Shown here one piece after another: positions 27,478 through 63,860 of a stretch of 64,000 bases of DNA (within the stretch, counting starts at the first letter, position 1; every line of letters begins with the position of its first letter). This DNA is from Yuukianura sp. NJ FZ-2021 (Eukaryota). The notes beneath the pieces were generated by a model. That model was not told where the DNA came from. It was given only the letters and a program-made list of their open reading frames with translations, and searched no databases. A program made the translations under genes and the position numbers. The stretch is taken from NCBI GenBank assembly GCA_046563655.1, contig CM102285.1, forward strand, positions 186,001 to 250,000, read 5' to 3'.

Positions 27478-27777
27478 TTAGCCATTAATTTGTGAGCTTA
27501 AGGTTAGCTCAGTTTCCGCACAAACCTCCAGAGAGCCTCCTTGGCATCTGAATCCACATGGTGGACCGATCGTTTGACAAGTAACGCCAGAGCCCAGGAA
27601 TCCCACTCTGGCGTTGTTGCAGGCGGAACTGCCCTCGTCCGGATTGCATGCTGGTGCATTGCACAGGCAAAGTGCCACAGTGTCTTCAACAGCACACCCT
27701 GCCTCAACTCCACCAATAGCCACCTGTATTGCGCCCACGGTAGCCACCAGAATAGCCACAACTGTTGCCATCTTCAT
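27478..27777 (-). CDS. Small secreted cysteine-rich protein (99 aa, single coding exon)
   Basis: MKMATVVAILVATVGAIQVAIGGVEAG resembles a signal peptide, followed by ~70 aa with 9 Cys. The region is a GC-richer island in AT-rich surroundings. Confidence 0.65.
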   Translation of the reverse strand: MKMATVVAILVATVGAIQVAIGGVEAGCAVEDTVALCLCNAPACNPDEGSSACNNARVGFLGSGVTCQTIGPPCGFRCQGGSLEVCAETELTLSSQING

Positions 27778-27841
27778 CCTTACAAGGCTTAGCTTAATTT
27801 GGAGTAGCCTACAAAACGTAAGCGAATAAAAGAGACTAAAC

Positions 27842-28076
27842 CAAGGTACGTAAACCAGAAAATGTTTTTTCTTCAACAGGTTAGGCAGTAACTAGAACTT
27901 ATTAAATTATTTTAAAAAATTAGCAACACTTGCTTCAGCGGGCCTTCCTATGGCAATGATTTATATGCAATCAAATGGGATTGGCGGAGAAAATTGTTCG
28001 GGGCGGGATTTCTCGTAAACAGGACTTATTGCCTAACCTGTTAAAGGAAAAATATTTCGTTGCAATTGGAACCTTG
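27842..28076. mobile_element. CAAGG-family MITE
   Basis: caaggtacg...aacaggttaggcagtaa / ttattgcctaacctgttaaagg...ggaaccttg; flanks gactaaac/gcctaaac. Confidence 0.75.
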
Positions 28077-29501: not shown

Positions 29502-32480
29502 TCATCGCGATGGCGCCACTTGACTCGGTTTTGCACCACTTTTGTTGGGCATTTCACTTGATTTTCGCATTTGATTCTTCGATAAAGTCGTCCTCCTCTG
29601 CCCAGTTGGTGTCGGTGAGGGACTCTCCACTTCAAAAAAAAAAATGAATTCATCAAATTTCAAAAAAAGTTCAAAATTTTGAAAACTTACATTCTTTAAT
29701 TTTCCGCCACTCTTCAATGTTCGCAGCCAAATTGAACACCCATGGTCTGTCGTGAGCGTCATCTTTAGAAACACGACCAGTTTTGCTAAAAAGTGGAAGA
29801 TTCGAAAAAACGCTGAGTCTTTGCCCTCTCGCACCGTCGTTGTGGGCTGAAGGTCGTCGTTCAGCATCCTGTGAGTCAAATGAGTCATGAGTCAAATGAG
29901 TCAAATGAGTCAATGAGTCAGTTACCTCTGTAGTGAGTCTGCGCTGAACCTGAACTGGTGGTGGTGGTGGAGCGGACTTGTCTTTTGGGCGGGAAGCTAG
30001 TATCATCTCCAAAAGGTCACCCAGAGCTTCAAACGTTGGTTGCACAATGACCTCGATGAAAGTGATTTGAGTTACCGCCGTTTGATCTGCAAAGGTCAAA
30101 GGTCAAACTCAAGGTCAAAGGTCAAAATCAACGTCAAAATTTGTACCTTTGGGGTCACAGAGTGGTGAAACTGGGATTTTCAAACTTCGTTCCTTGACGC
30201 CCTGGGCCAGAAATTCTGCAAGAACTGCTTCTGCGCACTGTTTGTGTATTGACCAAGGTTTTGCAGGATTTCCGATGTCCGCACAATGCAGAATCAGCGA
30301 CAGAGAATTTGAAATCACCTTGTGACTTGTTCCATCCCTGTCAAATTTTCAAAAAAAATCAAATAGTGAAAAACTTTTCAAAAAATGAAAAAAAAAACTC
30401 CTTACCATTCTCCAGCTTTCAAAAAACTTCGCACGGTTTTCAAATTTTGGAAATGTGAAACCATGTCTGTTGCCAGCACAAGTTCAATCACGAGTTCACG
30501 GAATTCTTTGAATTCGTCCGTTTTCAAATTTTCTAAAATGTTGCACGCCTGATTCTTCACAATTCTGAAAATTTAAAAAAAAACTGATCTCATCTCTGTC
30601 GAAAAACTTATTTAAAAAGTCGCTGCCTGTTCAACTTACAGAAACGCTGAGGAGAGGTGATGATTTTCTGAAAAAAAAGGAAACACTTTTTAAAGTTTTG
30701 AAAGCGATGTTCTAAAAACGTTGTTTTAAAAAGTGACTTTTTAAAAGTGACTCTTTAAAAGTGACTTTTTCAAAAGTTCCTCACCGAGTACATTTCTGTC
30801 GTTGTAGATCAACGCAAGCTGCGTCTGTGCATTGATGTGGAAGTTGTTTGTAGTTCCAGGGTGCGCCAAATCGTGAATAATTGCGGCAAAAATGAGTGCG
30901 AAAAGTTCCAACTCCGTGAAAGCTTTCTGAAACAAAAAAAATTGAGTTGTGCACAGTAATGAAAAAAAGCAAAAAGGAAAAAGAGAGAAAATTTAAGAAT
31001 TACGTAAACTCCAGGATGGGACTCTAAAATGGCATGGACGGTCTGTGTCACATCAGCGGCATGCCGATTGTTATGATACGGATTCCCTGAAAAAATGTTC
31101 AAACCCAAAAAATTTCAAAATATTTACAGCTTTCAAAATTTCGAAAGTTTTTTGTCTTACCATGCATAGTGTATCCAGCCTCTAAAGCTTTTACGAAATT
31201 CTTGAGAGCCGGAATCTTAATTCGAAACTTGCGAATAAAGTCATGACGTTTGAAAATTTCTCGAACTATGAACGCCAGAGAATGCTTGTCCGTTTTTTCT
31301 TCGAGCTCAAAACTATCAAAGTTCCAGTCGCTAATGTCCTACAACAAAGAAAGGTCAATGACCTTGACCTTTGAAAAGGTTAATGACCTTGACTTTGACC
31401 GAAAGGTCAATGACCTTGACCTTACCATAAGGATTTTGTCGATGATGTGCATCTTGGATTCGTTGAATCCTTGGAGTGAAATTATGGATCCACGATCTTT
31501 AGCTGCCTGCAAAGCTAGGTGAGAGACGGACTGATTCCAGGCCCGCCTTGCCCGCATTTTCTCTTTTCGAATTTTGGCGGGCGGTTTTCTGTCTTGTCTG
31601 TACGTTTGGTGCAGCCAATCCTTGAAGCCCGACGGCACGTGACTCACTCGACCCAAGTCCTCCTTCCACTCAACCTCCTCTGAAACATCAAAAACTTCAA
31701 AATCAGGCAAAGTCAAAGTCAAAAAAGTCAAAATCATGTAAAGCCAACGTAAACAAAGTCAAAATAAGGTAAAATCAACGTCAGCAAGGTCAAAGTCAGG
31801 CAAAGTCAAAGTCAAAAAAGTCAAAATCATGCAAAGCCAACGTCAACAAAGTCAAAATAAGGTAAAATCAACGTCAGCAAGGTCAAAATCAGGCAAAGTC
31901 AAAGTCAAAAAACTCAAAATCCTGCAAAGCCAACTTCAACATAGTCAAGATCAGGCAAAGTCAAATTGGAAAAAGTCTCGGTCGGGTAGGCACAAAGTCA
32001 AAGTCAAAATCATAGAATGTCAAAAGTAGAAGTGAAATTATGTTTAACGTGAGTTTAAAATTGGAGGGCAAAGGTCATACCGGGCATGACCCGACTTTTG
32101 TTCCTATTCGACCGACGAAACCACGAGAAACAGCACCAATAAGATGAGGGTCGGCTGGATTCGTCTTCCGACGGTGGTTCCTCGTCATCGCTTGTGAGAT
32201 CGCTGTCACGACGAGCGTATGCGCCGGACAGTTTTTTTGATTTCTTTGCGCATGAGCAACAACCGCAACACCTCTTCTTCTTTTCAGAATTGGACCAACA
32301 ACATTTGCAACATTTGGATTTTTTCGGTTCTTCCTCTTCAGGTAACTTCGGCGGCGGGAAATTTTCGTTCCCACTTTCCAAAAAGTGTGAAAAAATTGAG
32401 GCGGCTGATAAATTCCGAAGTCGGTTTTCCATTAGAAGGCAACTGACGATTGACTGAATTAAAAAACTAGTCATTCCGTA
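29502..32480 (-). CDS. Class I cyclic-nucleotide phosphodiesterase, divergent PDE1-like (multi-exon; 5' end uncertain)
   Basis: Catalytic motifs across exons: NPYHNNRHAADVTQT, AAIIHDLAHPGTTNNF, LALIYNDRNVL|ENHH (28-nt microexon 30640-30667), LVLATDM, LHCADIGNPAKPW, SPLCD, QITFIEVIVQPTF. The N-terminal VPSGFKDWLHQTY resembles PDE1 VPSEVRDWLASTF. Last exon ends ...VAPSR* at 29502. Confidence 0.85.
31690..32025. repeat. ~90-bp tandem repeat built from aaagtca/aaggtca units, in a PDE intron
   Basis: aaatcaggcaaagtcaaagtcaaaaaagtcaaaatcatg..aagccaacgt..acaaagtcaaaataaggtaaaatcaacgtcagcaaggtc repeated ~3x. Confidence 0.8.
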
Positions 32481-33177
32481 CATGCGCAACGGATTTGGAA
32501 AAATGGATGACACAAAAGTAGCTCATCGTAAGTTTCCCCTGATTTTTAAACAGGAGGAGATGAAACAGTTTAGCATTTTTTTTTTCAAAAACGTCTTTGT
32601 TTTTGTTTGGGGAGAATGTTTGCCTAAATTGCAGTCGTCGTCATGGTGATTTTCTGCACAAAATGTATTAATATGTACTAATACTAATGAGAAGATGTAA
32701 CTACGGAGTTGCTATTTAGGCATCATGCATTTATTTTTGAGTTTCCAATGAACCCTTTTTTATTATTATTTTAATTATTATATATTCATTATTATATCTA
32801 TGCAGGTTAGGCTGGGTTCTTTATCGAATGGAATGCAAAAATGTATGTAAGGAATTACACAAAAATTGTCTAACAAGGTGATAATCACGCGAAAACGTTA
32901 ACTAAAATTAGTAGTTAATTTTTAGCTTTTGAAGTTGATGAAACCTGGTAGTACACGCTCGGTTAGTAAATAGTACACGCATGAAAGCGTCTTCGTGCAT
33001 TTTGAATTCTGCGCACACGACATCTCATGTACTTTCACTTCGATCTTAAAAATCGATTTTTGAAAAAGGGAGTTCGGAAATTAAGGATTCGGGCAGAATC
33101 ATTCGCCTGCCCTACTACTTTTTCTAGTTTTGCACCGTTTTTAACGTAATTTTTTAACAGAACGTAACTATATTGAC

Positions 33178-34753
33178 ATGGCTTTTACATCTACAACAAC
33201 TTATTACAGTACGCTGGAGCGGAACAAAACTTTTGCAAAAGAGTGCCAATCTTTGAAGTTCCTACTTGACAGTCTCTGCAGCGATTCCTCTCATTCCAGC
33301 ACTTCCATTCATTCCAGTGCTTCCAAGTCCTCCGAGTCACAAATTATTATTGCAATAATATGTAAGAAGAAAGCTACTTTATATGCAGATAATGTCTGTC
33401 TGTCTGTCCGACGGTCAGCCTCAAAGGCAATTACCACGGGAAAATTTCGCCTAAACAAACTCCGTTCTCACTATTAAACAACAGCGGACCATTCATTGAA
33501 CCCAGTGTTGGTGGATATCCACTTTTCCCCCTATTTCATCCAGTGGATATCCGGTGGATATAAGGTTTCATCCAGTTCAGGCCGGATGAAATAGGATAAA
33601 ACCTTGTATCCAGTGGATATAAGGTTTTATCTGGATTCATCCAGACGAAAAAGGGAAAAATGGCTGGACAAATTGGATATATCCAATTAAATCCGAATAC
33701 TTCCACCAATTTCCACTGAGATGGAAGAAACGTTTTATCCATCCACCAATACTGATTGAATCATTGAACTATTAGGCGTTCTAAAACTGCATAAAATCAT
33801 TGTTGGCGGCCCACCAACACTACTTTTATGGAGTTTATCACTGACGTTTATGCATCCACCAATGGTGGATGATTAAGCAACAGTGGCATAATTACCTGTT
33901 CCACTGGGTATCCAGTGGAAGAAACGGGGTCATACTGAACGGTGGATGGAAGAAATCAGCTGTGTTTAAAAACAGCGCGAATTACAAATAAATTTTAATT
34001 AAATATTATGAAATACTTTAATTAACTATTTCAACTGCTTTTGCTTGATTGGTTTTTTTTTATTACAACTCAGTTTAGCACGTTTTGCAGTTGTTTCTGT
34101 AGTGTTTTTCATTTTTTCTCGCTCTTTCCTGTCAAATGATTCATATCTCGCGGTCAAAGCTTCGCCCCTTTGGATTAATCCATTTCGTCCGGATTTCTTC
34201 CACTGGCTATCCATCGTGTGGATGAAATATCGAAAAAGCGGGATATATCTATCAACAGTGCATCAAATGAAAAGGTGAAGGGATTGTGGTTTAAAGTGTT
34301 TAAAAGCCTCTTTTGGTTTATTTGAATAGGTATCCTGCTTGTAATTATCATCATATGTATCATCTGCATATACCGTATAAACCACTACGAATCGACAAAT
34401 TCTGGTAAACTACCCTGACATTTCTTGTATTCACAGCTGATCTAGTTCTACCTAATCAACTCTTTTTAGTCCCGAATGGACATCGGGGATCCGAGTGTGG
34501 TCCACGCCGGATGCCAAGGGAAGAGACGGAGCCACTGCCGTCAGTGAAACTGGGCGGAATATCGTTCTCCGCAAAAGAAATTCACGTTCAATTTGGAAAC
34601 GGAAATACTATGGTGGTGTGCGATGAGGAAGGAATGCCAGGACCTTTATACCCTCTGGGCATTCAGGAACGTCGCAAGGTTAGGTTTTCAATTGGCCGTG
34701 AGAACCCCATTACAAAACCCAACCAGTTCTTGCATTATATTCCCGAGTACTAA
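33178..34753 (+). CDS. Unknown single-pass membrane protein family, paralogue 1 (180 aa); exons 33178-33361, 34330-34404, 34470-34753
   Basis: Phase-1/phase-1 GT-AG introns give an open frame: ...ERNKTFAKECQSLKFLLDSLC...SQIIIAII|CILLVIIIICIICIYRINHYESTNS|VPNGHRGSE...EETEPLP...LYPLGIQERRK...LHYIPEY*. Confidence 0.8.
33503..33754. mobile_element. hAT-type MITE in intron 1 of paralogue 1
   Basis: TIR cagtgttggtggat/atccaccaatactg; TSD attgaacc/attgaatc. Same insertion at 37257-37508; empty site (single attgaacc) in paralogue 4. Confidence 0.8.
33798..34260. mobile_element. Second hAT-type MITE (tggat/atcca-rich) in intron 1 of paralogue 1
   Basis: Ends cattgttg...caacagtg; flanks cataaaat/catcaaat. 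Empty site gttctaaaactgcattaaatgaaa in paralogue 6; homologous copy at ~37580-37989. Confidence 0.65.
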
Positions 34754-35482
34754 ATGGGTTGTAAACCACACATAACAAAAATAACTCGGCGATAACGTAG
34801 TTTGCTGAAAATAACTGGACGAAACTAGAACGTCTCGGCCCTAGGCAGAGCTGTAAAGGATTTAATTTAATCTTAAACGCTTTTTATACAAAGGTAAATA
34901 GAATACTAATTCTTTTATACATTTTGTTTACTTCTTGTACTTTTATACTTTAAATGTTTTATATTTCAATTTTGTAATTTAAAGGAATTAAATTCTTAAA
35001 TCTGTCATCAAATGTCAGATTATTATAACCCAAAAATTGATATAAAACGATATTTTAAGCGTAAAAAATCGAGTGGCCGTTTTGCCGAATTTGTTCCGGC
35101 AGTTGAAAAATAAATTTGATTTTTTAAACTGTGAATTTCACTGTTCAATTTTTCTGTTTCTGCTTGCAGCAGTAAAGTGTAATTAACCATATCTGCGGAA
35201 TCACCTCGTCTTAAATTTGATGTACTCTGGAAAGTATTTGCACGTATGAAGGCGTTGTCGTGGATTTTAATTTCTGCGCATGCGGCATCTATGAGACTTT
35301 TACTGCGATATTCAAAATCTATTTTTAAAAAAGGGACCTCGGAAACCAAAGATTCGGGCAGAATCATTCGCCTGTCCTAAACACAACTATTTTCTGTATT
35401 TTTGTACCGTTTTTAACGTAATTTTTAAACCTAACCATATTTATTTGGTAGTCATAAACGACATTCATCTGAGTCCAAACCT

Positions 35483-36275
35483 ATGGACGAAAGACTTATT
35501 GTAGCATTGTGTAAGCTTACTTTATACTTATATGTTGTCTGTCTGTCTGTCTTGTGTGCCGGTCAGGCGCAACGGTACACTCGGAACGAATACGGAACCA
35601 ATTTAGTTTATCAGTTTAGATATTAGATTATTTAATATTATTTAGATATTTTAGTTTAGTTTAGAACACGTTTATAACCCAGGGTAATCACGTTCCGGGT
35701 CAAAGGTCAGCCTTTTCTAAACCGTGTTACGACATTGTGCTGAGTACCTATGTGCGCCTAAATTGTGCTGTTCCAAACTTAATTCATCGTTCGCTACTTG
35801 TTCAAACTTCGATTTTCACCGGTTCATTAATAAATGAACATAAATAATCGCATCCCGTGAAAAATGAAGGGAATGTGGTTTAAAGTGATTAAAAACGTTT
35901 TGTGGTTTGTTTGAATGGGTTTGTTTGTTTGAATAGGTTCGATGGGTGCCGGCTTGGGATTTTCGTTGCTATTGATCCTCTACATATGCTACAGTGTACG
36001 ACGCTTCGCGTCCAAGCAGTCTGGTAAGCACCCTCATTAACATTTGTTGTGCTGACACTGACAGCTAACTTAACCATTTGTTTTTAGTGCGACATGGACA
36101 TGGAGCATCCGAGTTTGGTTCTTCTCCGAAACTAACGAAAGAGACGGAGCCACTCCATGCACGTCCAGTGGTCCAAATACTGTCCTTCGGGGGTCCAATT
36201 CACATCTACAGAGACGGAAAGACTGAAACCATTTGGGGGAAGGAGGAACTGGGCGATTACATTCACGAGCATTAA
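35483..36275 (+). CDS. Membrane protein family paralogue 2 (~100 aa, minimal ectodomain); exons 35483-35510, 35937-36023, 36088-36275
   Basis: MDERLIVAL|CSMGAGLGFSLLLILYICYSVRRFASKQS|VRHGHGASEFG...ETEPL...VVQILSFGGPIHIYRDGKTETIWGKEELGDYIHEH*; same splice phases as the other copies. Confidence 0.7.
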
Positions 36276-36931
36276 ATAAGATATGACAAACATAACTGAG
36301 ACGATAAAGCAGTTTTCTAAAGCTAAACTGGACAAAACTGGAACTTCCGGGCCATTAGCAGAAAGGATTTATTTTCATTTTATACTTCAATTTTGTAATC
36401 TAAATAAATTAAAATCTTAAATCTGTTATTAATGTCATGTTTGGTTTTTGTTTTTCAAAAACTCATGCACAAAATAGGATCTCACATTCACACTGAAAAT
36501 TTTTAGCGACGTTTTAGAGCATCAATTCCATGAAAACGGTTTCGCAGTTCGTCCATAGTTTTGCGGTAGGCCGGTCTCAATGTCGTATCAATCAAGGAAT
36601 TACACAAAAATCGTCTATCCAAGGTGATAATCACGCGAAAACGTTAACTAAAATTAGTAGTTAATTTTTAACTGCTTAGGTTTTGAAGTTGATGAAACCT
36701 GGTAGTACACGCACGGTTAGTAAGTAGTACACGCATGAAAGCGTCTTCGTGAATTTTGAATTCTGCGCACGTAGCAACTCATGTACTTTCACTTCGATCT
36801 TAAAAATCGATTTTTGAAAAAGGCAGCTCGGAAACTAAAGGAGTCGAGCAGAATCATTCGCCTGCACTACTATATACTTTCTCTAGTTTTGCACCGTTTT
36901 TAACGTAATTTTTTAACAGAACTATATTGAC

Positions 36932-38238
36932 ATGGCTGTTGCATCTACATCAATTTACACGAATCTGGAGCGGAACAAACCTTTTGCAAAAGAATGCCAA
37001 TCTTTGAAATTCCTACTTGACAGTCTCTGCAGCAATTCCGCTCATTCCAGCACTTCCTCTCATTCCAGTGATTCCAAGTCCTCCGAAACAGAAACTATTG
37101 TTGTAATAATAATAGGTAAGAAGAAAGCTACTGTATGCGCAGATAATGTCTGTCTGTCTGTCCGACGGTCAACCTCAAAGGCAATTACGTCAGGAAAATT
37201 TCGCCTAAACAAACTCCGTTCTCACTATTAAACAACAGAGGACCATTCATTGAACCCAATGTTGCTGCATGTCCACTTTTTTCCCTATTTCATCCAGTGG
37301 CTATCCGGTGGATATAAGGTTTCTTCCAGTTTCAGCAGGATGAAATAGGATAAAACCTTGCATCCAGTGGATATAAGGTTTTATCCGGATTCGTCCAGAT
37401 GAAATAGGAAAAAATGGCTGGATAAATTGGATATATCCAATTAAATCCGGATACTTCCACCAATTTCCACTGAGATGGAAGAAACGTTTTATCCATCCAC
37501 CAACACTGATTGAACCATTGAACTATTAGGCGTTCTAAAACCGTTAATACTAAAAAAACTAATACTAAAAAAGTTAATACTGACGTGTAAGCATCCACCA
37601 ATGGTGGATGAGTAAACGTCAGTGGCATAATTGGCTGTTCCACTGGATATCCAGTGGAAGAAACCGGCCCATCCTGGACGGTGGATGGAACAAATCAGCT
37701 GAGTTTAAAAAACAGCGCGGATTTCAAATAACTTTCAATTAAATATTGTGAAATACTTTAACTATTTAAACCGCTTTTGCTTGATTGGTTTTGTTATTAC
37801 CACTTACCTTTAGCGCGTTTTGCAGTTGTTTCTGTAGTGTTTTTGATTTTTTCTCGCTCTTTCCTGTCAAATTATTCATATCTCGCAGGCAAAGCTCCGC
37901 CCTTTGGATTCATCCATTTCGTCCATTCCTTCCACTGTATATCCATCCGGTGGATGAAATGTCGAAAAAGTGGATATCCATCAACAGTGCATCCAATGAA
38001 AAAAATGAAGGGATTGGGGTTTAAAGCGTTTTTTGGTTTGTTTGAATAGGTGTCCTGTTTATCTTCATTATATTTATCATGATCGTATACTTTCTATGCC
38101 GCAACAAATCGACGAACTCTGGTAAATCACATTGACAATTCTTGCTAATCTAATCTAATCTGAACTATTTCTAATCTTTAATCTATTATAGCTAATTTAA
38201 TCAATTTCTTTCTAGTCCCAAATGGATATCAGGGATGA
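36932..38238 (+). CDS. Membrane protein family paralogue 3, lacking the cytoplasmic domain (~92 aa; could be a pseudogene); exons 36932-37115, 38050-38121, 38216-38238
   Basis: Exon 1 is close to paralogue 1. TM exon GVLFIFIIFIMIVYFLCRNKSTNS; exon 3 reads VPNGYQG* and then jumps to 3'-UTR-like sequence. Confidence 0.65.
37257..37508. mobile_element. hAT-type MITE (duplicate of 33503-33754)
   Basis: caatgttg...caacactg with perfect attgaacc TSD. Confidence 0.8.
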
Positions 38239-39073
38239 GAACGAAACTATAGAACATCTTACCCATTATCACAGCTGTAGGATTTATTTTACTTCTAAAC
38301 TTTTTTATACCAAGGTAAATAGAACATTAATTCTTGTATACTTTTTTACTTCTGATACTTTTATACTTTATACTTTTTATACTTCAAGTTTGTAATTTAA
38401 AAGAGTTAAAATCTTAAATCTATCATCAAATGTCATGTTTGTGTTTTCTTTTGTTACAAAATATGATTAATAAAATATTTCCTCTTATTAGTTTTTTCTT
38501 TTTTTGCAAAAACGTGTTTGTTGTCTCCATTTTGTTGTTTAGGGGAATATTTGCTTATAAATTCCAAACAGTTGTCTTGTCGTGGCGTTAGTTTTCTTTG
38601 CGAAAAAAAAATCTGGCGATTATAATACTAATGAGAGGATGTAATTCCGAAATTGCAACGTTACCAAAACTTATCCAATTGCTTAGATTTTTGAATTTCA
38701 CACGAACGCCTTTTTTTTGTAAGAAATTACACAACAATTGTCTATCCAAGCTTAATAATGATACCAAAATGTTACCCAACAGTAGCAGCGAATTAAACTT
38801 AAGTTCTCTGGATTTGAATTTGATGTAGTCAAAGTAAGCAGTATCGAAGCGTCTTCATCGATTTTGAATTCGGCGTGCGGCATCTCTTGAACTTTCACTG
38901 CAATAGTAAAAATCGATTTTTAGAAAAGGGACCTCGTAAACCAAAAGATTCGGGCCGAATCATTCGTCTGTCTTCTCCTACCCCAACTATTTTCTCTACT
39001 TTTTTGTTATTTTTAACATAACTTTGTAACCTAACCTAATCAAATTTAACTTGGTTTCTACATAAACTCCATA

Positions 39074-39844
39074 ATGCTAGAGGTGAATAAGACTTTGACG
39101 AAGGAGTGCGAATACTTGACATTCGTACTTGACAGTATCTGCAATTCCTCGGATTCCAGCACTTCCAACACGGGACTTCTTATATTCGTAGGTAAGGCGA
39201 AAGCTACTTTATACGCAGGTATTGTTTGTCTGTCGGCCCGCCACAAAGACAATTATCTCTGAAACATTTCACCTAAACATTTGCTGATCCGTTTTCACTA
39301 TTTAACAACGGAGGAGCCCAACTACTCAACCATTGAACCATTCAATTATTAATTCGTTCTAAAACTGCACCAAAAGAAAGAATGGAGGGATTGCCAAGTG
39401 TTTAAAAACGTTTCTTGGTTTGTTTGGATAGGTATCGTGCTGGTAGTGTCTTCGATAGTTACCTACGCCGCGTTCCGTGTCGTGCAGCATGAGAAAGAGA
39501 TGCAGCACGAGTCTGGTAAGAACCAACCTTAACCTTGGTAGCTGACAGCTAACCTACTCAATTTGCTTTCAGTCCGGAACAAACTTCGAAGATCCGAGTT
39601 GGGCCCGAGTCGGACAGAGACGGAACCCCTGCCATCACCTCAACTGGTCCAAATAGTGTCCTTCGGTGGATCAATCCTCGTCACATACTCAAACGGAAAG
39701 ACTGAAGTGATTTCGGGCAAGGAAGGCCAACCAACACTTTTGTACCCTCTGGGCATTCAAGAATGTCACAAAATTGGACAAGCGATTTGCTCTGAAAAGC
39801 CAACTGAGAAATCCCAACAGTTGTTTCATTACATTCAAGAATAA
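39074..39844 (+). CDS. Membrane protein family paralogue 4 (157 aa); exons 39074-39191, 39432-39515, 39573-39844
   Basis: MLEVNKTLTKECEYLTFVLDSICNSSDSSTSNTGLLIFV|GIVLVVSSIVTYAAFRVVQHEKEMQHES|VRNKLRRSELG...LVQIVSFGGSILVTYSNGKTEVISGKEG...LYPLGIQECHKIG...FHYIQE*; spliced length 474 nt. Confidence 0.85.
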
Positions 39845-40534
39845 CAATTCATTCAGTTAAAACTTACTCACTATATGTGTAACATTTTGGTATCATTTTT
39901 AACACACTACTTTCTCATGTTCACATAATTGACTTGTGTCCTTAAGTTTTTTTAGTTAAACATGTAAAAAGTGGACTTTTTGTGCCAACTTTCGCTCAAA
40001 CCTGTACAAAATTCAACAAGAGTTTTAACAAATTCGATATTTTTCAGAATTTGGATTGCTTAGTGGAACTTTCAGATAACTTTTGATTGACTGAATTGTA
40101 AATTAAAAATACCCAATTTCCAAGGTAGTTGAAAAATAAATTCGATTTTAAAATTTTGAATTTCACTTCCAACTATTCACAACTTTTCAGTTTCTCCTTC
40201 CAGTATAGTAAGTGTAATTAAACTTGTCTGTGAAATCATCTCATCTAAAATTTGATGTAATCTAGAAAGTATTTGTACGCATGAAAGTGTTTCGTGGATT
40301 TTGGATTCTGCGCATATGCGGCATCTATGGGACGTTCAATGCAATATTCCAAATCGATTTTTAAAAAAGGGACCTCGGAAACCAAAGATTGGGGCCAAAT
40401 CATTCGGCTTTCCTATCCCAACTACAGACTACCCCAACTAACCTCTGTATTTTCTCTATTTTTCACCCCTTTGTAACACATTTTTTAAATTAACATAACA
40501 AATCATATATTAACGTGGTAGTTACATAAACTAC

Positions 40535-41870
40535 ATGATGCTGGACGAGAATAAGACTTTGACGACAGAAACGTTGACCAGAATCTGCGACGCATACCAT
40601 CCTTATGCCGGCCCTAACGATATAGAAGAGACGGCAGCTAAGTGGGGCATACGTAAGGCGGAAGCTACTTTATACGCAGATTTATCTGTCTGTCTGTCCG
40701 CCAGCCGCAACGGCAATTATCTCGGAAACATTTTACCTAAACATTTGAGGTCTCTACTCCCGTTTTCACTTATTTAGAAGCCCCAACTAACTACTCAACT
40801 CATCCATCGAATCATTGAACTTACGTAATAAACGGTTGTCCACCGGTGTATGCAAGTAACGAAAGATGGCGGTGCAATCGCAAACAGCTGTTCAGACGGA
40901 CATATTACAGTGAAGTATAATACACTGGTTACCAACGGTAAAATGAAAAAAGGTTTTTAGCTCGGGGTTTTGTGATGCATGCAAAAGTTGTTGATCTCGA
41001 TGAGACAAACAGGTTTTGTAGAAGTCATTTTCCATTTTACCGAGAATAAAACCTTGACCTTGACCTTTCACCTGGAATGAGCTGATCCACCGGGTTGATA
41101 TTCAATAGCGACTATCAAAAGGCTACTCCCGTAAATAGATCCCGCAAATATTGAGCCGTTTCCGAGATAATTGCCGCTACCTGCCGGCCAGACAGACAGA
41201 CAGACAAAGCCACACCATAAAGTAGCTTTCGCTACTTAATAATCAACTTTTGCTACCTAAAAATCGTTCTCAAACTGCACGAAATGGAAAATATATAAAT
41301 GGGTTTTGGTTCCAAGTGTTTAAAAACGTTTTTTAATTGGTTTGAAAAGGTATCTTCATTGGATTTACTATTCTATTGTGCATCTTCTCATGCTGTTCAT
41401 GCATTCGATTTGATTTGATTTTCTTCGATTTGAAGCAGTGTGGTAAGCAATAAAGTTGACATTACTGGTACTGCTACTTTTTTTAGTACCGACCGTCGAC
41501 CTAGTCAATTGCTTTTTTTTTAGTCTCGAATGGACGTGAAGGATCCGGGTCATTTCGGAAGCTAATAGGAGAGAAGGATCCCATACCGAAGCCAATAGAA
41601 GAGACGGATCGCATTAATCCCATTCCGAAGCTAAAAGAAGAGATAGATCCGATACCGAAGCCCACGTCAAATGAGGTGGTTGACATAATGTGCTTCGGAG
41701 GAGCACCAATTCGCGTCACATACACAGACGGAAAGACAGAACTGTTTTGGGCGGAGAAAGGGGTGACAACATTTTTATACCCACACACCATTCGCAAACG
41801 TCGCAAAATCGGACAAGAGATTCTGCCTCAAAAGGACTTCAAGCGGGGCTTTAAGGAAGCACCATTTTAA
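40535..41870 (+). CDS. Membrane protein family paralogue 5 (~185 aa); exons 40535-40652, 41350-41442, 41524-41870
   Basis: MMLDENKTLTTETLTRIC...KWGI|RIFIGFTILLCIFSCCSCIRFDLIFFDLKQC|VSNGREGSG...3x(D/N)PIPK...VVDIMCFGGAPIRVTYTDGKTELFW...LYPHTIRKRRKIG...*. Confidence 0.8.
41035..41240 (-). mobile_element. DINE-1/HINE (Helentron-associated)-like element fragment in intron 1 of paralogue 5
   Basis: The minus strand reads agtagc-gaaa-gctact hairpin, (tgtc)n microsatellite, then ggcaattatctcggaaacggctc. Family assignment is from recalled architecture; boundaries approximate. Confidence 0.5.
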
Positions 41871-42679
41871 TTAGTTGTAATTATTTTATTCTTTATTTTT
41901 ATACTCTCTTTAGAATGCGGTTTTCAAATTTGAAAAAATTCAGTCGTCTTATTAGGCGTGTTGACACAGAAATTTTCACTTTAAAAAAATTACCTATAAC
42001 CTTGAAAAAGTAAGCTTAGCCATATAAGCGACACATCACAATTCGCAGTAGAAGCGAAAAAAAAAGTAACAAAAATTTGTAAATAGCCAATTTAACATAT
42101 TTCATATAATATAATATTTCATAACATATAATTAGAAATAAATATATTTACAATTTTAATAAATACCTACGGATTTTACTATTACTATATTATTATTATT
42201 ATTATTATTATAATATTATTATTAGTATTAGTATTATTATTATATTATAGGTAACGGTAACATATCTAAACAACGCTGTTAACAAAACTCTCTTTGTACG
42301 AAAACATTTTTGAAAAGTGGCTGCTGATCAACGTCGAGGATAAGTGGTTATTTTCCTAAAAGAAAACTTTTTTTAATTGTTTTTTTTTTTTACATGATGT
42401 TCTAAAAAAATGTTGGTTTGCCAGTCACTTTTTAAAAAAAAAAGTAGTTTTTTTTCTATGGAATCGTCTTCTTAGATTTGAATTCTGCTCCAGCGCGGCA
42501 TCTCTTGGTCTTTCACTGTGATATTCAAAATCTATTTTTGACAAAGGGAGCTCGGGGGCCGAATCATTCGGCTGTCCTAGTCCTACCCCAACTATTTTCT
42601 CAATTTTTCACTCCTTTTTAACTTAAACTTTTTAACTGAATTTACTAATATTGACTTGGCCGTGTGTTACATAAACTAA

Positions 42680-43987
42680 ATGATGCTAGAGGGGAATACA
42701 ACTTTGGCGACAGAGTACAAATACTTGGCATCCGTACTTGACAATATCTGTCCTCCCCCTCATTCCAGTACTTCTGGATCTTATGCTTGGGCTATTGCAT
42801 TCATATGTAAGTCGAAAGTTTAGTTGATACGTAGATATTGTCTGTCTGTCTCTCTGCCAGCCGCAACGGCAATTATCTCGAAGGATACATTTCACCCAAG
42901 GTTTCTTGACAACGAAAAGGTGTTGTTTCGTTGTCAAGGAACCTTGAATTTCACCTAAACATTGCGGACTCCGTTTTCACTATTAAACAGTGTTCCGTAA
43001 AAAGCGGTTTTTTAAAGTCGATGCTTTGCTTTTGGCTGTAAGTAGTTTTTTGTTAGGCCTTTTTTGCTTTTTTTTGTTGTAAAAGCAGAATTTTCGCTGC
43101 AAAGTGAATGCCAGCCAATTAATTAATTTGTATTTAATTATATATCGTAGTCGACGTATAGTCGTTACATACGGCAATCATAGTAAATTTTATGATTCTT
43201 TTACGTTAAAAAAAATTCAAAAATCGACTGAAATGGTCAATTAAGGTGTTTTGAAAAAAGCAAAACCCTAAAACCAAACGTGAAAACGTTTTTGCTTAAA
43301 AAGAAAAAAAAACAGTGTCTGCTTTAAAGCACATCGGATTCGGAACACTGCTAAGGAGAGGCCCCAACTACTAATCCATTGAACCAGAGAACTACCGTAA
43401 ATTTCCAAATACAACCCCCGAGGCATTTGTTTGGAGACCTATGGGGAGAGGGGTCATATTCGGAAAGTTATAGTAATAATATCGTTCTAAAACTGCATTA
43501 AATGAAAAAAAAATTGAGGGATTGTGGGCTGAATTGTTTAAAAACTTTTGTTTTCAAATGTAGGTGTCCCGGTTGGAATTTGTGTTCTATTTTCCATCAT
43601 CATAGGCTGTGCATATTACGATAACTACACCCGTTCGAAGAAGTCTGGTAAGCAACGTTGACATTTCTAGCGCCGATAGCTAAACCTAATCAATTTGGTT
43701 TAATAGGGAATGGATATCCAAGACCCGAGTTCAGTTCAAGCCGGCCGCAAAGGACGCAGAAATCACCCCGGCCACCACCTGAAATGGTCGAAATAGTGGC
43801 TTTCGGAGGAGAAATTTTCGTCGAATACAGAGACGGAACGTTTGAATTCATTTCAGGAAAGGAAGGGATGCCAGCACTATTTTACCCTCTGGGAATTCAA
43901 GAACGTCGCAAACTTGGACAACCGATTTGCACTGAAAAGCAGACTGAGGAAGCGAAACAGTTATTGCATTACATTCACGAGCACTAA
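42680..43987 (+). CDS. Membrane protein family paralogue 6 (163 aa); exons 42680-42806, 43564-43647, 43707-43987
   Basis: MMLEGNTTLATEYKYLASVLDNICPPPHSSTSGSYAWAIAFI|CVPVGICVLFSIIIGCAYYDNYTRSKKS|GNGYPRPEF...MVEIVAFGGEIFVEYRDGTFEFISGKEGMPALFYPLGIQERRKLG...LHYIHEH*. Confidence 0.85.
42897..42946. mobile_element. 50-bp minimal CAAGG-family MITE
   Basis: caaggtttcttgacaacgaaa-aggtgttg-tttcgttgtcaaggaaccttg; atttcacc duplicated on both sides; empty site in paralogue 4 (39262 aaacatttcacctaaac). Confidence 0.75.
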
Positions 43988-44740
43988 ACAAGACATGACA
44001 AACATAATTCAGGCGATAAAGCAGTTTTCTAAAAAGCTAAACTGGACGAAACTGGAACTTCCGGGCCATTAGCAGAGCTGTAAAGGATTTATTTTCATTT
44101 TTATACTTCAATTTTGTAATCTAAATAAATTTAAATCTTAAATCTTATTAATGTCATGTTTGGTTTTTGTTTTTTGCATAAAATATGGTGAATAAAATAT
44201 TTCTTCCTTCTACATCAAATTAAGGTGTAAGTAGTATGTCATCCATCAATTTGTTCCGGATGAAACATAATCCGCTGAAAAAAGTGTCTAATCCTCAGAA
44301 TTGTACTGAATCCAAAACCTAAGCAACGATTCTTAGGAATAGTCACTCCGAATGCTGTTGATTCAGAGGATTAGTCACCTGCCTCATTCTTTAATTTGAA
44401 GAAAGTATTAACTTCCACCCTTTTGTATCACAGTGTAGGGACACCGCCATGTTAATGGCTACAAGGGATGCCTACACTTGAGTGGCAACTTCAGTGGCCA
44501 CTTTTACCAAATCTAGCCTAAAGCGGCAATGTAAGTTGCCACACATTGTATCCACTAAACATCGTAGATTGGCTACACTGTCCGGCCACAGTGAAGATCG
44601 ATGGACCTTACTCCAACCAAAATTTTAGTAAAAACTTTATTTAAAAACTGTAATTTTCTTTTTGAAGACAAGGAGAGAGAATTACTATTGTCGATTGTTG
44701 AAACTAGTACTCAGCATTGCTGAGGTCTAATTCAGCTCCG

Positions 44741-46311
44741 ATGGCCGAAAGTACGGAACACAATCCAACCGTGATTGATTGTGCAATTTGCCTAGAGAAA
44801 GCAGGTATAACCAACTAACCAGTGTGAAGAAGCGTTTGACACAATTTTATTACACAATATCCTTGCTTTTCAGTTTATCCTGTGAAACTGCCGTGCAGCC
44901 ATTGCTTTTGCTACTTGTGCTTGAAAGGAACTGCTCTCACGGCTACCCAACATGGACAGAATCCACGATGTTCAATGTGTCGAACTGGCATTCCACTTCA
45001 TATCCTCACCAATCCTCCTCTAATGGAACCCGTTACGAGCAATCCATCTGCTGCCAGTGGCAACGAGTATCAGTGGTTCTACGAGAGCCGTGGCGGTGGT
45101 AAGTTCCAAAATGATAAGCAAAAGGAGTTCTTTTTATTGAAAATACTATTCAACCCTTTCTGTTTCCATTTTTCAGGATGGTGGCAGTTTGAGCAACGAC
45201 ACAATGTCGACTTGGAACGAGCCTTCGAAGCCAAAGAACCAAAGTGCAAGTTACTCGTTGTTGGGCAGTTGTTTGAGATTGACTTCCAGCAGATGATTCA
45301 GTACCGTCCAAATAGTCGTCACATTATACGCAGAATCAAACGAGATTTGGTCACTGCACAGAAAAAGGGAATCGCCGGTATCAGGATCAACTCTACTCCA
45401 GATTCCTCCACTCCTGTCACTCAAGGTAACTCAACAGGCTGATACAACAATTTGTAGCTCTGTTTAGATCAAGATCTAACACTTTTTCAGTATTTTGGTT
45501 TATGAATTACTAATTAAGTTAACCACGAACATAGCCTAACTTAACTTGGATTTGCAATTGATGAAATTGTGAATAAATCGTTTTTGTTTCGTTCTGTCAT
45601 ACGCTTCGTTTTTTCACAGGAATCGACACAAATGCGACTCAGGATCCCCCGGTAGCCTCAGCCTCTGCCACGGCCCTGCTTGGTCCAAGTGAAATCAGGG
45701 CCGTCACTGCTCGCAGTCTAAGTTCATCGGAAGTGGAAGAATACTTTGAAGAAGATGATGATGATGGGAGCTACTTTGGAAGTGACATATCAGGTGACGA
45801 AGACCAGGAAGAGGATGACGATGATGATGACGGAGGAGATGTCGTGATCGTCGACTTTTTTCCACCAGTTCCTCAAACGCGCGATAGTTCAAGTCAAGTT
45901 GAAGCTGAAATTGAGATAGTCGATCTCGATGATACTCATGTTGACGTTGGAACCACTCTTCAGCAAATGATCAACCGAGTGGAGTCGGAAGCTGTCTCGG
46001 AAGTGACTTTTGGCGATGTTGTCCCAATTCCGCATTTCACTGCTGGTCGCTTTTTGTCTCAAATGAACAACCGCGAGGCCACTTTAAATTCAAATTCAGA
46101 ATCGAATCAACTTTTGGTACTCCGTCGGCTGAATGCCCGTTCCGTCTCTGAACCGGCTGGATTCCGGTATGTCCATGACTTTACGACTCCGTCGTCGTCC
46201 AATTCCGTTGAGTCAGCCGTGGCAGTTAGTGAAATTGGTGAAGATGGTGCTCAGGATACTACTGGTCATAACAATATGCTGCCCGAAGAGGGAATGGACA
46301 TCGCTGATTAA
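44741..46311 (+). CDS. RNF146: E3 ubiquitin ligase RNF146/Iduna (RING + WWE); exons 44741-44804, 44874-45098, 45177-45425, 45620-46311
   Basis: RING: CAICLEKA|VYPVKLPCSHCFCYLCLKG...CSMCR. WWE: YQWFYESRGG|GWWQFEQR...IDFQQMIQYR...RRIKRD...KKGIAGIR. Acidic tail. Confidence 0.92.
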
Positions 46312-46563: not shown

Positions 46564-50208
<3,645 letters not shown>

Positions 50209-60211: not shown

Positions 60212-60985
60212 TTATACGCGAGAGCGTCTTATCTGCGAGAAAATAGGGTAGTACTGATCAAGGTAATGCGCCAACTGTTTGGCTTCAGTCTGCTTTTGAG
60301 AGAGGAACTCTTGAATGCTCAGTCCTTCCTTCGCCCCAATCACTTCAGTCTTTCCGTCTCTGTATGTGATGTAAATTGGAGCCTTGAAGGACACTGAGAC
60401 TATGTCGCACGGTTGCGGTTGACGTGACGGCAGTGGCTTCGTGTCTTTTGTTAGCTTCCGGGATGACCCTAACTCGGATACTCCATGTCTGTCCCGCGCT
60501 AAAAACAAATTGGTTAGGTTATGTGTGAGGACATGGCGTCAATATGTTAAGCTTCCTTACCACACTTCTGCCTCAGCTCCTCTAGTATGACCCAGCATGA
60601 CGCACCGAATAGTCCCGTGAAAAATGCAAACAGGAGACCTTCAAGTAAACCAAAAACATTTTTAACCGCGTCAACATTTTTAACCGCGTCAAACCCCAAT
60701 CCCGTCATTATTTTTTTTTTAGTTTTATGCAATTATTCTAGAAAGATTATTTGTTCAACGGTTCGATGGATAATGAACTAAACTAAATAGTTCGGGGTCT
60801 CTGGTGTTTAATAGACGGAGACGGACAATATCTGCGTGTAAAGTAAGCTTACATATCGGTAGAAGAAGTCCTGTTATGTCGGACGTTTTTGGCGGAAGGC
60901 TGGAGTCCGAAGAATTGCACATACTGCCAAGTAGGAATGTCAAGTATTCGCACTCTTTCGTCAAAGTCTTATTCACCTCCAGCAT
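60212..60985 (-). CDS. Membrane protein family paralogue 7 (dispersed, inverted; ~165 aa); exons 60853-60985, 60561-60638, 60212-60498
   Basis: MLEVNKTLTKECEYLTFLLGSMCNSSDSS...TGLLLPI|CLLFAFFTGLFGASCWVILEELRQKC|ARDRHGVSELG...IVSVSFKAPIYITYRDGKTEVIGAKEGLSIQE...LAHYLDQY...*. Confidence 0.82.
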
Positions 60986-61029
60986 GGTGTCCTTTATGTC
61001 GAAACCAAGTAAATTTGGTTAGGTTATGT

Positions 61030-61215
61030 TAACAAATTACGTTAAAAACGGTACAAAAATAAAGAAAGTAGTTGTGTTTCTGTTTAGGACAGCCCGTATG
61101 ATTCGGCCCGAATCTTTGCTTCCCGATGTCCCTTTTTTAAAAATCGATTTTGAATATCGCAGTGAAAGCCCAAGAGATGCCGCATACACGCAGAATTCAA
61201 ATTCCATGCATACTT
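61030..61215 (-). promoter_or_regulatory. Conserved upstream block of the paralogue family (also ~32975-33165, 35230-35435, 36730-36920, 38845-39035, 40270-40490, 42465-42635)
   Basis: ttttgaattctgcgc...gcatct...ttcactgcgatattcaaaatcgatttttaaaaaagggacctcggaaaccaaagattcgggccgaatcattcg.ctgtccta lies immediately 5' of every paralogue's ATG. Regulatory role is inferred. Confidence 0.55.
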
Positions 61216-61762
61216 TTAGACTATTGTTCAAGAGTACGCCAAATCCAAAACCACATAAGTTACGTTTACCTAACTACTAATTAATCTTAACTACCATTAA
61301 ATTTAGCATGACTACGCATCGCTAGACGATTCTTGTGTAAGTTAAACAAAAGTTAAAATACTGTTGAAAATTTCAAGTTCAGCAGTGAAAAACTAACTAA
61401 AGATCCAAAACCGGTCGATAATTGCATACAAGCTTTAGTTTATTGAATTTGATTAACATATTTTTCTTGGCTTAAATGACACAAAGTATACGCAACTTAT
61501 AGCCTAAACATAAATGATCATAATTCAGAATCACTAGAAATAAGGAGTCACAAGTACAGTTCATTTTGTAAGGACTGTACACTTTAGCACCACCAGTCGC
61601 CCCACCAATTAATTAGTTAATTAATTAAGGTCTCACTTAATTATTTAATTTCAAGAATTCAAATCTAAAGTTGACTATGCTGGTCCCACGGGTCGTTTGG
61701 CCATTATTGGATTTTGTAGATTCGTTTGTAGATTCGGATTTTGTAGGTTTTTGATTCGTTTT

Positions 61763-63666: not shown

Positions 63667-63860
63667 ATAAGGGCTAAACCAAAAAGGGCTACTCCAATAA
63701 GGGCTACTCAATAAGGGCTAAAAAAAATAAGGGCTACTCCAATAAAGGCTACTCCAATAAGGGCTACTGTCAATAAGGGCTACTGTCAATAAGGGCTACT
63801 TTTAATAAGGGCTACTTAATTAAAGCGTATTTACTTATTTTCCCGCGCCGAAGGCGCGGC
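63667..63860. repeat. ~15-bp tandem repeat (aataagggctactcc) followed by a cgcgcc-gaa-ggcgcg hairpin; probable transposon end
   Basis: About 10 copies of taagggcta; GC-rich hairpin at ~63843-63859. Confidence 0.7.

What the first reader, a model, noticed from the sequence alone, without database searches (positions are those of the whole stretch)
33178..43987. Hidden seven-member family of small single-pass membrane proteins with an unassigned conserved C-terminal domain
Seen: the ORF track shows only disjoint fragments, but splicing at homologous GT-AG sites (both introns phase 1 in every copy) yields open frames for six tandem genes here plus one at 60212-60985. Shared architecture: no signal peptide; short N-terminus with an N-x-T sequon (NKT/NTT in 5 of 7) and 1-2 Cys in 6 of 7 (C-x10-C in copies 1, 3, 4, 7); a hydrophobic helix split across exons 1/2; a polar linker, often with ETEPLP; then a domain with approximate consensus V.IvsFGG.I.V.Y.DGKTE.I.GKEG...LYPLGIQE.RK.G..I..EK......L.HYI.E. 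Exon lengths differ between copies but always preserve frame, which argues for purifying selection on protein. Inference: type III (N-out) membrane receptors or adaptors in a rapidly diversifying, lineage-specific cluster (immune, sensory or reproductive). I do not recognise the domain.
Basis: partly seen in the sequence, partly recalled or inferred. Interest (0 to 1): 0.85.

Follow-up and report, generated by a model that had tools for sequence, protein, structure and literature searches.

The report
Tandem orphan single-pass membrane gene family
Seven small three-exon genes in an arthropod genome encode one-helix membrane proteins whose tail domain matches no known family; four look intact and three are decaying, an ordinary kind of lineage-specific gene cluster.

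Summary
Seven paralogous units exist: six in tandem on + (33.0-44.2 kb) and one inverted (60.1-61.3 kb).

Protein coding is supported without RNA:
- every exon-length difference is a multiple of 3, intron lengths are not;
- the exon-3 frame has no stop;
- 14 of 14 donors read GTAA;
- the seven putative leaders hold no ATG (0 in 750 nt; 7.6 expected).

Only four copies (c1, c4, c5, c6) carry a full C-terminal domain. c3 has lost it; c2 and c7 have deletions in it. Constraint on the protein is weak (dN/dS 0.3-0.9; linker about 1). Flanking non-coding DNA is as conserved as the exons, and similarity between copies is mosaic, which points to recombination.

No relative turned up in Pfam, a profile search of 1.84 billion proteins, PDB, the ESM Atlas, or metagenome and viral contigs. 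AlphaFold models are poor (pLDDT 53-54).

N-out/C-in topology fits the charge distribution. Function is untested and no RNA runs were available. Verdict: a real, probably taxon-restricted, fast-evolving orphan family. Modest interest.

The parts
32976..34753 (+). c1 gene, 180 aa, complete architecture. Conserved upstream/leader 32976-33177 (Inr-like motif, A at 33100); exons 33178-33361, 34330-34404, 34470-34753.
35241..36275 (+). c2, 100 aa, degraded. Exon 1 is reduced to 28 nt (35483-35510); exon 2 is 35937-36023; exon 3 is 36088-36275 with an in-frame loss of about 30 domain residues. Upstream 35241-35482 is closest to c7; the 3' flank is closest to c6.
36730..38238 (+). c3, 92 aa, truncated. 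Exons 36932-37115, 38050-38121, 38216-38238. The C-terminal domain is deleted. Young duplicate of c1 (85.7% over 1599 nt).
38814..39844 (+). c4, 157 aa, complete and most compact. Exons 39074-39191, 39432-39515, 39573-39844; introns 240 and 57 nt.
40277..41870 (+). c5, 185 aa, divergent. Exons 40535-40652, 41350-41442, 41524-41870. In-frame 30-nt tandem repeat in the linker (41558-41614, PIPKP-type). Domain present, but the HYI-x-E end is lost.
42457..43987 (+). c6, 163 aa, complete. Exons 42680-42806, 43564-43647, 43707-43987.
60212..61268 (-). c7, 165 aa, an inverted copy of a c4-like unit. Exons 60985-60853, 60638-60561, 60498-60212. Two in-frame deletions in the domain; the shared stop is lost, giving a 12-residue extension. 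Upstream 61268-60986.
39192..39291 (+). Example (c4) of the roughly 100-nt block at the 5' end of intron 1. It is conserved between copies at 62-93% and has an inverted extra copy inside c5 intron 1 (40658-40729 against 41232-41158).

Best explanation
This is a taxon-restricted, tandemly duplicated family of small three-exon protein-coding genes in an arthropod (probably hexapod) genome. An intact member (157-185 aa) has these parts, in order: no signal peptide; a 30-55-residue N-terminal segment with a positionally conserved N-x-T sequon, a C-x10-C pair and a Ser/Thr-rich stretch; one transmembrane helix encoded across the exon 1/2 junction; a basic stop-transfer flank; a low-constraint acidic and proline-rich linker; and a 65-70-residue beta-rich C-terminal module that ends in a helix and an HYI-x-E tail. 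The predicted orientation is N-out/C-in (type III). That would make a small glycosylated, disulfide-looped stub outside the cell and an interaction module in the cytosol. The array evolves by birth and death with unequal crossing-over or gene conversion: four copies are intact (c1, c4, c5, c6) and three are decaying (c2, c3, c7). Shown here: the paralogy, the conserved gene structure, the signatures of coding and of an mRNA leader, the single helix, and the absence of detectable relatives. Inferred: transcription, topology and glycosylation. My own odds are about 0.85 for a real coding family, 0.65 for N-out topology, and 0.3 for the proposed role as a membrane-anchored adaptor or accessory subunit whose cytosolic module recruits a partner.
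For: Seven units are related at E 7e-30 to 9e-10 at the protein level (5 further copies found with the c4 exon-3 frame) and share DNA blocks. Splice sites placed by homology alone give phase 1/1 in 7 of 7. Exon 1 and exon 2 come in 5 and 6 distinct lengths, all frame-preserving. Intron lengths are mixed mod 3: intron 2 is 65/64/94/57/81/59/62. The distance from acceptor to the shared stop in c1, c2, c4, c6 is 284/188/272/281, which differ by multiples of 3. The coding frame of exon 3 has 0 stops in 7 of 7; the other two frames have 1-7 stops each in the 6 long copies. A neutral simulation gives P(no stop) of 0.03-0.21 per lineage at 0.10-0.25 substitutions per site. All 14 of 14 donors are GTAA and 14 of 14 acceptors are AG. 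An Inr-like ATCATTCG (ATCATACG in c7) lies 77-134 nt before the ATG in 7 of 7. Between that motif and the ATG there are 0 ATGs in 750 nt. Shuffles give a mean of 7.6 (0.0002 of 5000 shuffles reach 0), the introns' density predicts 8.9, and the 840 nt just upstream hold 15 ATGs. In exon 2 the second codon position is conserved (0.42 differences per codon pair, against 0.69 and 0.72 at positions 1 and 3), as expected if hydrophobicity is kept. KD19 of the helix is 2.2-4.0, and positive charges lie on the C side. N-terminal dN/dS is 0.26-0.78 in the 15 pairs that could be computed. No relatives and no TE or viral domains were found. Neighbouring genes are ordinary arthropod genes: Cad96Ca-like kinase, RNF146-like, BRCT, CABIT.
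Against: There is no transcript evidence: no RNA run was listed. Constraint on the protein is weak. dN/dS for the C-domain among the four full copies is 0.61-0.84 (6 pairs), and the linker ranges 0.46-1.80. Third positions are not more variable than first positions, and the linker shows no periodicity at all (0.46/0.46/0.45). Upstream DNA and intron ends are as conserved as the exons or more so. Conservation of the sequence therefore does not by itself argue for protein function, and part of the similarity may be kept by gene conversion. Three of seven copies are degraded. Both structure models are of low confidence (pLDDT 52.8 and 54.3) and disagree on the middle of the domain, so a 'folded domain' is not established. 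The window's own species and its close relatives appear to be absent from the protein library: the best identity for a conserved kinase exon is 59-76%. 'No relatives' therefore cannot separate a species-level orphan from a family present in unsampled relatives.
Confidence: 0.65

Rival explanations
1. This is a decaying array. The ancestor was a gene, but the present copies are mostly or wholly non-functional relics. Their frames are still open because of recent duplication and gene conversion between copies.
For: 3 of 7 copies carry large deletions. dN/dS is 0.6-0.9 in the C-domain and about 1 in the linker. There is no third-position excess. Non-coding flanks are as conserved as the exons. 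Similarity is mosaic, indicating conversion: c2 upstream is 89% identical to c7, c2 3' flank 95% to c6, and c4 exon 1 91% to c7.
Against: Copies differ by 25-50% in their exons, yet keep frames, splice sites, start codons and ATG-free leaders. c1 and c3 replaced a lost ancestral ATG by a new upstream one. All indels in exons 1 and 2 are multiples of 3, while intron indels are not.
Confidence: 0.15
2. The genes are real but the topology is the opposite one (type II, N-in/C-out). The helix would act as a signal anchor, and the conserved C-terminal module would be displayed outside the cell or shed.
For: No signal peptide and an internal hydrophobic segment fit both type II and type III. In c1 the charge counts on the two sides of the helix are equal. 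A beta-rich small module with a lectin-like or Ig-like hairpin motif produced weak matches to extracellular bacterial repeat proteins and lectins.
Against: K/R counts favour C-in in 6 of 7 copies. The conserved sequon and the Cys pair lie in the N-terminal segment. The C-module has no conserved cysteine. The matches to bacterial repeat proteins are sums of many 15-35-residue stretches and are not homology.
Confidence: 0.12
3. The unit is cargo of a mobile element or of an endogenous virus, for example a small viroporin-like membrane protein, rather than a host gene family.
For: Each unit carries the same conserved upstream block and intron block. One copy is dispersed and inverted 16 kb away. 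Intron 1 of c1 and c3 contains foldback-type inverted repeats. The best ESM Atlas neighbour was a viral cluster, at a score of 0.76, which is below the level treated as more than a lead.
Against: No transposase, reverse transcriptase, integrase or capsid domain was found in any of the 10 ORFs tested in and around the cluster. No relative was found in viral contigs: 56 pattern matches, none confirmed. There are no terminal repeats bounding the units. Conserved spliceosomal introns sit at identical phases. Within the window the upstream block occurs only at the seven genes.
Confidence: 0.04

Closest known systems
KCNE/MinK-type channel accessory subunits (recalled from general knowledge, not fetched)
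   Same: Small single-pass proteins without a cleaved signal peptide, N-out, with an N-glycosylation sequon within the first few residues and a cytosolic tail. They are a model for how such a protein can work, as an accessory subunit of a larger membrane protein.
   Different: No sequence relation: Pfam returned no family for any exon-3 frame or for the c1 exon-1 frame. The present proteins have a longer, beta-rich cytosolic module. KCNE genes are not known to me as fast-evolving tandem arrays.
SMAGP-like small type III membrane glycoproteins (recalled)
   Same: About 100-aa type III proteins with a short glycosylated, Ser/Thr-rich ectodomain and no signal peptide.
   Different: No detectable similarity. 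SMAGP is a single-copy vertebrate gene without a comparable C-terminal module.
Insect Osiris gene cluster (recalled)
   Same: An arthropod-restricted tandem cluster of small membrane-associated proteins of poorly known function.
   Different: Osiris proteins have a signal peptide and a named Pfam domain, and are conserved across insects. Here there is no signal peptide, no Pfam hit, and no relative in arthropod proteomes.
Taxonomically restricted ('orphan') tandem gene families of arthropods
   Same: No detectable homologues, tandem birth and death, weak constraint, short genes missed by ORF-based views. Orphans are reported as frequent in understudied arthropods (PMC3616916; I saw only the search listing and the start of the abstract).
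   Different: This is a category, not a family, so membership says nothing about mechanism.
Sm/Hfq-like small beta-barrels
   Same: The best Foldseek matches of the c4 model were Hfq chains, which are five short strands.
   Different: Not significant (best E 0.21, TM 0.32/0.40), and from a model with pLDDT 52.8. The second model does not reproduce the fifth strand. No sequence match either.

Membership tests
Any Pfam-A family | Profile match at or near the gathering score | tested here: not met
   0 families at E <= 1 for five exon-3 frames. 0 families at E <= 0.1 for the c1 exon-1 frame. Three weak matches (E 0.026-0.099), all below curated cut-offs, fell on 2 of the other 9 ORFs in or near the cluster.
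Type III (N-out, no signal peptide) single-pass membrane proteins (topological class) | One hydrophobic helix of about 20 residues and no N-terminal signal peptide | tested here: met
   KD19 is 2.17-3.95 in 7 of 7. In the first 30 residues the best 8-residue KD is 0.4-1.8 in the 6 copies with an N-terminal segment; in c2 the helix itself starts at residue 5. This is a simple hydropathy test, not a trained predictor.
Type III (N-out, no signal peptide) single-pass membrane proteins (topological class) | Positive charges enriched on the C-terminal (cytosolic) flank; N-terminal segment glycosylated | tested here: inconclusive
   K/R on the C flank exceed the N flank in 6 of 7 and are equal in c1. 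A sequon is present at one aligned position in 5 of 7. Glycosylation itself cannot be tested here.
KCNE / ISK channel subunits | Sequence match to the family profile | tested here: not met
   No Pfam family was reported. Exon 2 and the exon-joined protein were never scanned, because joined sequences were not handed to the tools.
Bacterial Rib/Big/Calx-beta repeat proteins (the only hits of the profile search) | One continuous alignment over the domain with a significant score | tested here: not met
   5 proteins at E 4.6e-09 to 5.8e-04, 598-3277 aa. Each match is a sum of 5-9 short stretches, and the best stretches cover only 15-66 profile positions. All five are bacterial or phage repeat proteins by Pfam.
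Sm/Hfq fold | Confident model with a significant structural match | tested here: not met
   pLDDT 52.8. 0 Foldseek matches at E <= 0.001; best E 0.21.
Transposable-element or viral gene | Association with TE or viral protein domains, terminal repeats, or relatives in viral sequence | tested here: not met
   Copy number in the whole genome could not be tested, because no genome is held.
Expressed, spliced gene | Reads spanning the predicted junctions | not testable with these tools
   No RNA run was listed.

The most novel reading that the evidence does not exclude
The 65-70-residue C-terminal module is a protein domain with no described relatives. It would define a hexapod-lineage-restricted class of type III membrane adaptors. 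Their ectodomain stub and helix diversify by duplication and recombination, as in a recognition system (immune-type or gamete-type), while a common promoter keeps the members co-regulated.
Probability: 0.2. Interest if true: 0.5.

Novelty: new variant of a known kind. Interest (0 to 1): 0.3.

Why it matters
If the genes are expressed, this adds an unassigned protein module and a small membrane-protein family that ORF-based or homology-based annotation would miss. Its exons are only 28-347 nt and it has no relatives. It is also a compact example of birth and death with recombination in a gene array, where promoters, leaders and intron ends are kept as well as the coding sequence or better. It opens no long-standing question. 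Orphan tandem families are common in arthropod genomes, and nothing here points to a new mechanism.

Tried and rejected
- RNA evidence: no RNA holder was listed for 34001-44000.
- Whole genome: none is held for this window, so copy number outside the window is unknown.
- Enumerating all open GT-AG three-exon models from the c4 ATG gave 521. I dropped 'an open frame exists' as evidence and used homologous site positions instead.
- Positive selection on exon 2: in the young c1/c3 pair exon 2 is far more diverged (0.278) than upstream plus intron 1 (0.092; Fisher p = 1e-05). But intron 2 is elevated as well (0.231; p = 0.001). I read this as the edge of a duplication or conversion tract, not as adaptive change. 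No other copy is a closer donor for either exon 2.
- Profile search of 1.84 billion representatives: only 5 hits, all spurious bacterial or phage repeat proteins.
- PDB by sequence: 3 lectin chains at E 0.68-0.79, not significant.
- ESM Atlas: best score 0.76 for exon 3, no usable hit for exon 1.
- AlphaFold, twice: pLDDT 52.8 and 54.3. Foldseek against PDB: nothing at E <= 0.001.
- Homodimer of the C-module: the job gave no verdict.
- Related loci: metagenome contigs, 358 pattern matches, none confirmed (a first try with the six-sequence alignment was not conserved enough). Viral contigs, 56 matches, none confirmed.
- Rfam gave 0 matches and tRNA search 0 genes in the window, so the conserved intron block is not a known RNA family.
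- Earlier findings of this scan: nothing by place, by sequence or by words.
- Literature: one search ('orphan gene', 'single-pass', 'tandem', 'springtail'; at least 3 of 4 terms) listed 11 papers. None is about such a family, judged from titles and abstract starts. This is not a claim that the family is unpublished.
- A search with a BRCT-gene exon to place the organism found nothing.


Full report
**What the window is.** The 64-kb window is AT-rich eukaryotic DNA, 31-44% G+C in 2-kb windows. It carries ordinary animal genes. Pfam finds CABIT, RING+WWE, tyrosine-kinase, metallo-beta-lactamase-fold and BRCT exons. The kinase exon is most like arthropod Cad96Ca receptors. Named hits include Diaphorina citri (59% identity) and the springtail Allacma fusca (73% over 73% of the query); unnamed hits reach 76% over 56%. 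In that search 376 of 984 candidates scored E <= 0.001. The RING-WWE exon reaches only 38-40% identity to RNF146-like proteins of a sea star, a mite and psyllids (4 hits). The host is therefore an arthropod, probably a hexapod. Its own proteome and those of close relatives are not in the protein library. No whole genome is held for the window.

**The observation.** tblastn with the c4 exon-3 frame finds the same module at five further places: c6 at 7e-30, c1 at 2e-19, c7 at 2e-15 (minus strand), c5 at 3e-11 and c2 at 9e-10. Three more hits at E > 3 are noise. blastn of 32-45 kb against the window shows seven units sharing an upstream block, exon 1, both ends of intron 1, exon 3 and the 3' flank. 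Six are in tandem on the + strand and one is inverted at 60.1-61.3 kb. c3 is a young duplicate of c1, 85.7% identical over 1599 nt. About 390 nt of c1, including nearly all of exon 3, are represented by about 96 nt in c3.

**Gene models.** I aligned the seven upstream/exon-1 regions and the seven exon-2/intron-2 regions. I took the donor and acceptor sites that occupy the same aligned columns, without using the reading frame as a criterion. The models are:
- c1: 33178-33361 / 34330-34404 / 34470-34753
- c2: 35483-35510 / 35937-36023 / 36088-36275
- c3: 36932-37115 / 38050-38121 / 38216-38238
- c4: 39074-39191 / 39432-39515 / 39573-39844
- c5: 40535-40652 / 41350-41442 / 41524-41870
- c6: 42680-42806 / 43564-43647 / 43707-43987
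- c7 (minus strand): 60985-60853 / 60638-60561 / 60498-60212

Both introns are phase 1 in 7 of 7 copies. All 14 donors read GTAA and all 14 acceptors are AG, mostly after a T-rich run.

**Is it coding?** An open frame after GT-AG splicing is cheap: from the c4 ATG alone there are 521 such three-exon models. Four other lines carry the argument.
- Lengths. Exon 1 has five distinct lengths and exon 2 has six, all frame-preserving. The acceptor-to-stop distances of the four copies sharing the HYI-x-E end are 284, 188, 272 and 281, which differ by multiples of three. Intron lengths are mixed mod 3. The 30-nt tandem repeat in the c5 linker is also in frame.
- Stops. The coding frame of exon 3 is stop-free in all copies, while the other two frames carry 1-7 stops. 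Random substitution at 0.10-0.25 per site leaves the frame open in only 3-21% of trials per lineage.
- Start codons. c4-c7 share an aligned ATG. c1 and c3 have lost it and use a new ATG eleven codons upstream.
- Leaders. An Inr-like motif (the name is recalled, not tested) is conserved 77-134 nt before the ATG in 7 of 7. The 750 nt between it and the start codons contain no ATG. Shuffles give a mean of 7.6 and reach zero in 0.0002 of 5000 trials. The intron ATG density predicts 8.9, and the 840 nt just upstream of the motif hold 15. This is what selection on a scanned mRNA leader would produce.

**The protein.** Each copy has one strongly hydrophobic segment (KD19 2.2-4.0) that spans the exon 1/2 junction. 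The first 30 residues hold no signal-peptide-like core in the six copies that keep an N-terminal segment. K/R within 15 residues number 0-1 before the helix and 1-4 after it; the C side is larger in 6 of 7 and equal in c1. An N-x-T sequon sits at one aligned position in 5 of 7. C-x10-C occurs in c1, c3, c4 and c7, followed by a Ser/Thr-rich run. The C-terminal part has no conserved cysteine. This rests on rules of thumb, not on an experiment or a trained predictor.

**State of the copies.** Only c1, c4, c5 and c6 carry a full-length C-terminal module, and c5 has lost the terminal motif.
- c2 keeps 9 residues before the helix and lacks about 30 residues of the module.
- c3 ends 7 codons into exon 3.
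- c7 has two in-frame deletions and reads 12 residues past the shared stop position.

**Selection.** Nei-Gojobori estimates give whole-CDS dN/dS of 0.32-0.87 in 19 of 21 pairs; two pairs are saturated. By region:
- N-terminal segment: 0.26-0.78, computable in 15 pairs.
- Linker: 0.46-1.80.
- C-module among the four full copies: 0.61-0.84, 6 pairs.

Differences per codon position are 0.46/0.36/0.46 overall, 0.46/0.46/0.45 in the linker, 0.69/0.42/0.72 in the helix and 0.40/0.30/0.35 in the C-module. Constraint is therefore mild. It is clearest as retention of hydrophobicity in the helix and of the first roughly 30 residues; c4 and c7 are 91% identical in exon 1.

Non-coding blocks are conserved at 62-93% between copies, no less than the exons. 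These blocks are the 200 nt upstream of the ATG, the first 100 nt of intron 1, the last 80 nt of intron 1, and intron 2.

Similarity is mosaic. c2 is closest to c7 upstream (89%) but closest to c6 downstream (95%; 90.9% over 209 nt). c4 is closest to c7 in exon 1 and marginally closer to c6 than to c7 in exon 3 (76% against 74%). In the c1/c3 pair, divergence jumps from 0.09 (upstream and intron 1) to 0.28 in exon 2 and 0.23 in intron 2. I read this as a tract boundary rather than adaptive evolution. The picture is birth and death with recombination between members.

**What the module is.** The searches gave no relative:
- Pfam: nothing.
- Six-sequence profile against 1.84 billion representative proteins: 5 hits (E 4.6e-09 to 5.8e-04). 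All are long bacterial or phage repeat proteins (Rib, Big_6/BapA, Calx-beta/SdrD, tail-fibre repeats) matched in 5-9 short stretches, a recurrent beta-hairpin motif and not homology.
- PDB by sequence: nothing significant.
- ESM Atlas: no lead.
- Metagenome and viral contigs: no relatives.

Two AlphaFold runs on the shallow paralogue alignment gave pLDDT 52.8 and 54.3. They agree on three to four N-terminal strands and a C-terminal helix but not on the middle. Foldseek found nothing at E <= 0.001; the best matches were Hfq chains at E 0.21. The fold is undetermined. No TE or viral domains occur in 10 ORFs in and around the array, and no Rfam family matches the window.

**Verdict.** The best reading is a real, probably taxon-restricted, fast-evolving family of small type III single-pass membrane proteins. 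Four members look usable and three are decaying. A role as membrane-anchored adaptors or accessory subunits is a reasoned guess from the architecture, by analogy with KCNE-type and SMAGP-type proteins recalled from general knowledge. No family relationship with them was found. Expression, topology and function remain untested. Orphan tandem families are common in arthropods, so interest is modest.

Noticed in passing
32976-33177, 35241-35482, 36730-36931, 38814-39073, 40277-40534, 42457-42679, 60986-61268(-): The 200-300 nt upstream of every copy is conserved at 75-93% between copies, as well as the coding exons or better. It contains an ATCGAT/ATCTAT palindrome-like core and an Inr-like ATCATTCG, and it is ATG-free downstream of that motif. 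It is probably a shared core promoter plus leader.
   Followed up: partly
33362-33461, 37116-37215, 39192-39291, 40653-40752, 42807-42906; inverted copy 41158-41232: The first 100 nt or so of intron 1 is a conserved block with a (GTCT)n-like run. c5 carries an extra inverted copy about 430 nt downstream in the same intron. There is no Rfam match. It could be a splicing or regulatory element or an old repeat.
   Followed up: partly
33515-33542 / 34219-34246 and 33584-33642: Intron 1 of c1, and the homologous c3 intron, holds nested inverted repeats of foldback or MITE-like appearance. These account for most of its extra length relative to c4.
   Followed up: no
47601-50138 (-): Exons of a Cad96Ca-like receptor tyrosine kinase: a kinase exon (best named hits are arthropod Cad96Ca), and ORFs at 48524-49165 and 49752-50138 that by eye look like a helix-bearing and a cadherin-like extracellular exon (not scanned).
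   Followed up: partly
44840-46311 (+); 54952-58887 (-); 8944-9717 (-); 52407-52808 (-): Neighbouring genes: RNF146-like RING+WWE, a multi-BRCT TopBP1-like gene, a CABIT-domain exon, and a weak (below cut-off) metallo-beta-lactamase-fold match. The RNF146-like exon is only 38-40% identical to its best database matches.
   Followed up: partly
6296-6893: A 35-bp tandem repeat, 17 copies at 94% matches. It produces long spurious ORFs on both strands (6063-7058).
   Followed up: no
32055-32522 (-) and 27478-27891 (-): Two ORFs without a Pfam match lie just upstream of the array. One has CC-rich clusters (CCxCC type) in a basic context. The other has a hydrophobic N-terminus followed by a Cys-rich segment, so it is possibly a small secreted protein.
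   Followed up: no
31697-31964; 42176-42248; 63667-63816: Further tandem repeats: 31/93-bp units just before the array, a (TTA)n microsatellite between c5 and c6, and 15/60-bp units near the window end.
   Followed up: no
39935-40202 vs 54789-54520; 40076-40168 vs 60162-60067: The 3' flank of c4 shares an 83% block with the 3' flank of c7, consistent with c7 being a copy of a c4-like unit. It also shares a 68% inverted block with DNA near the BRCT gene.
   Followed up: no
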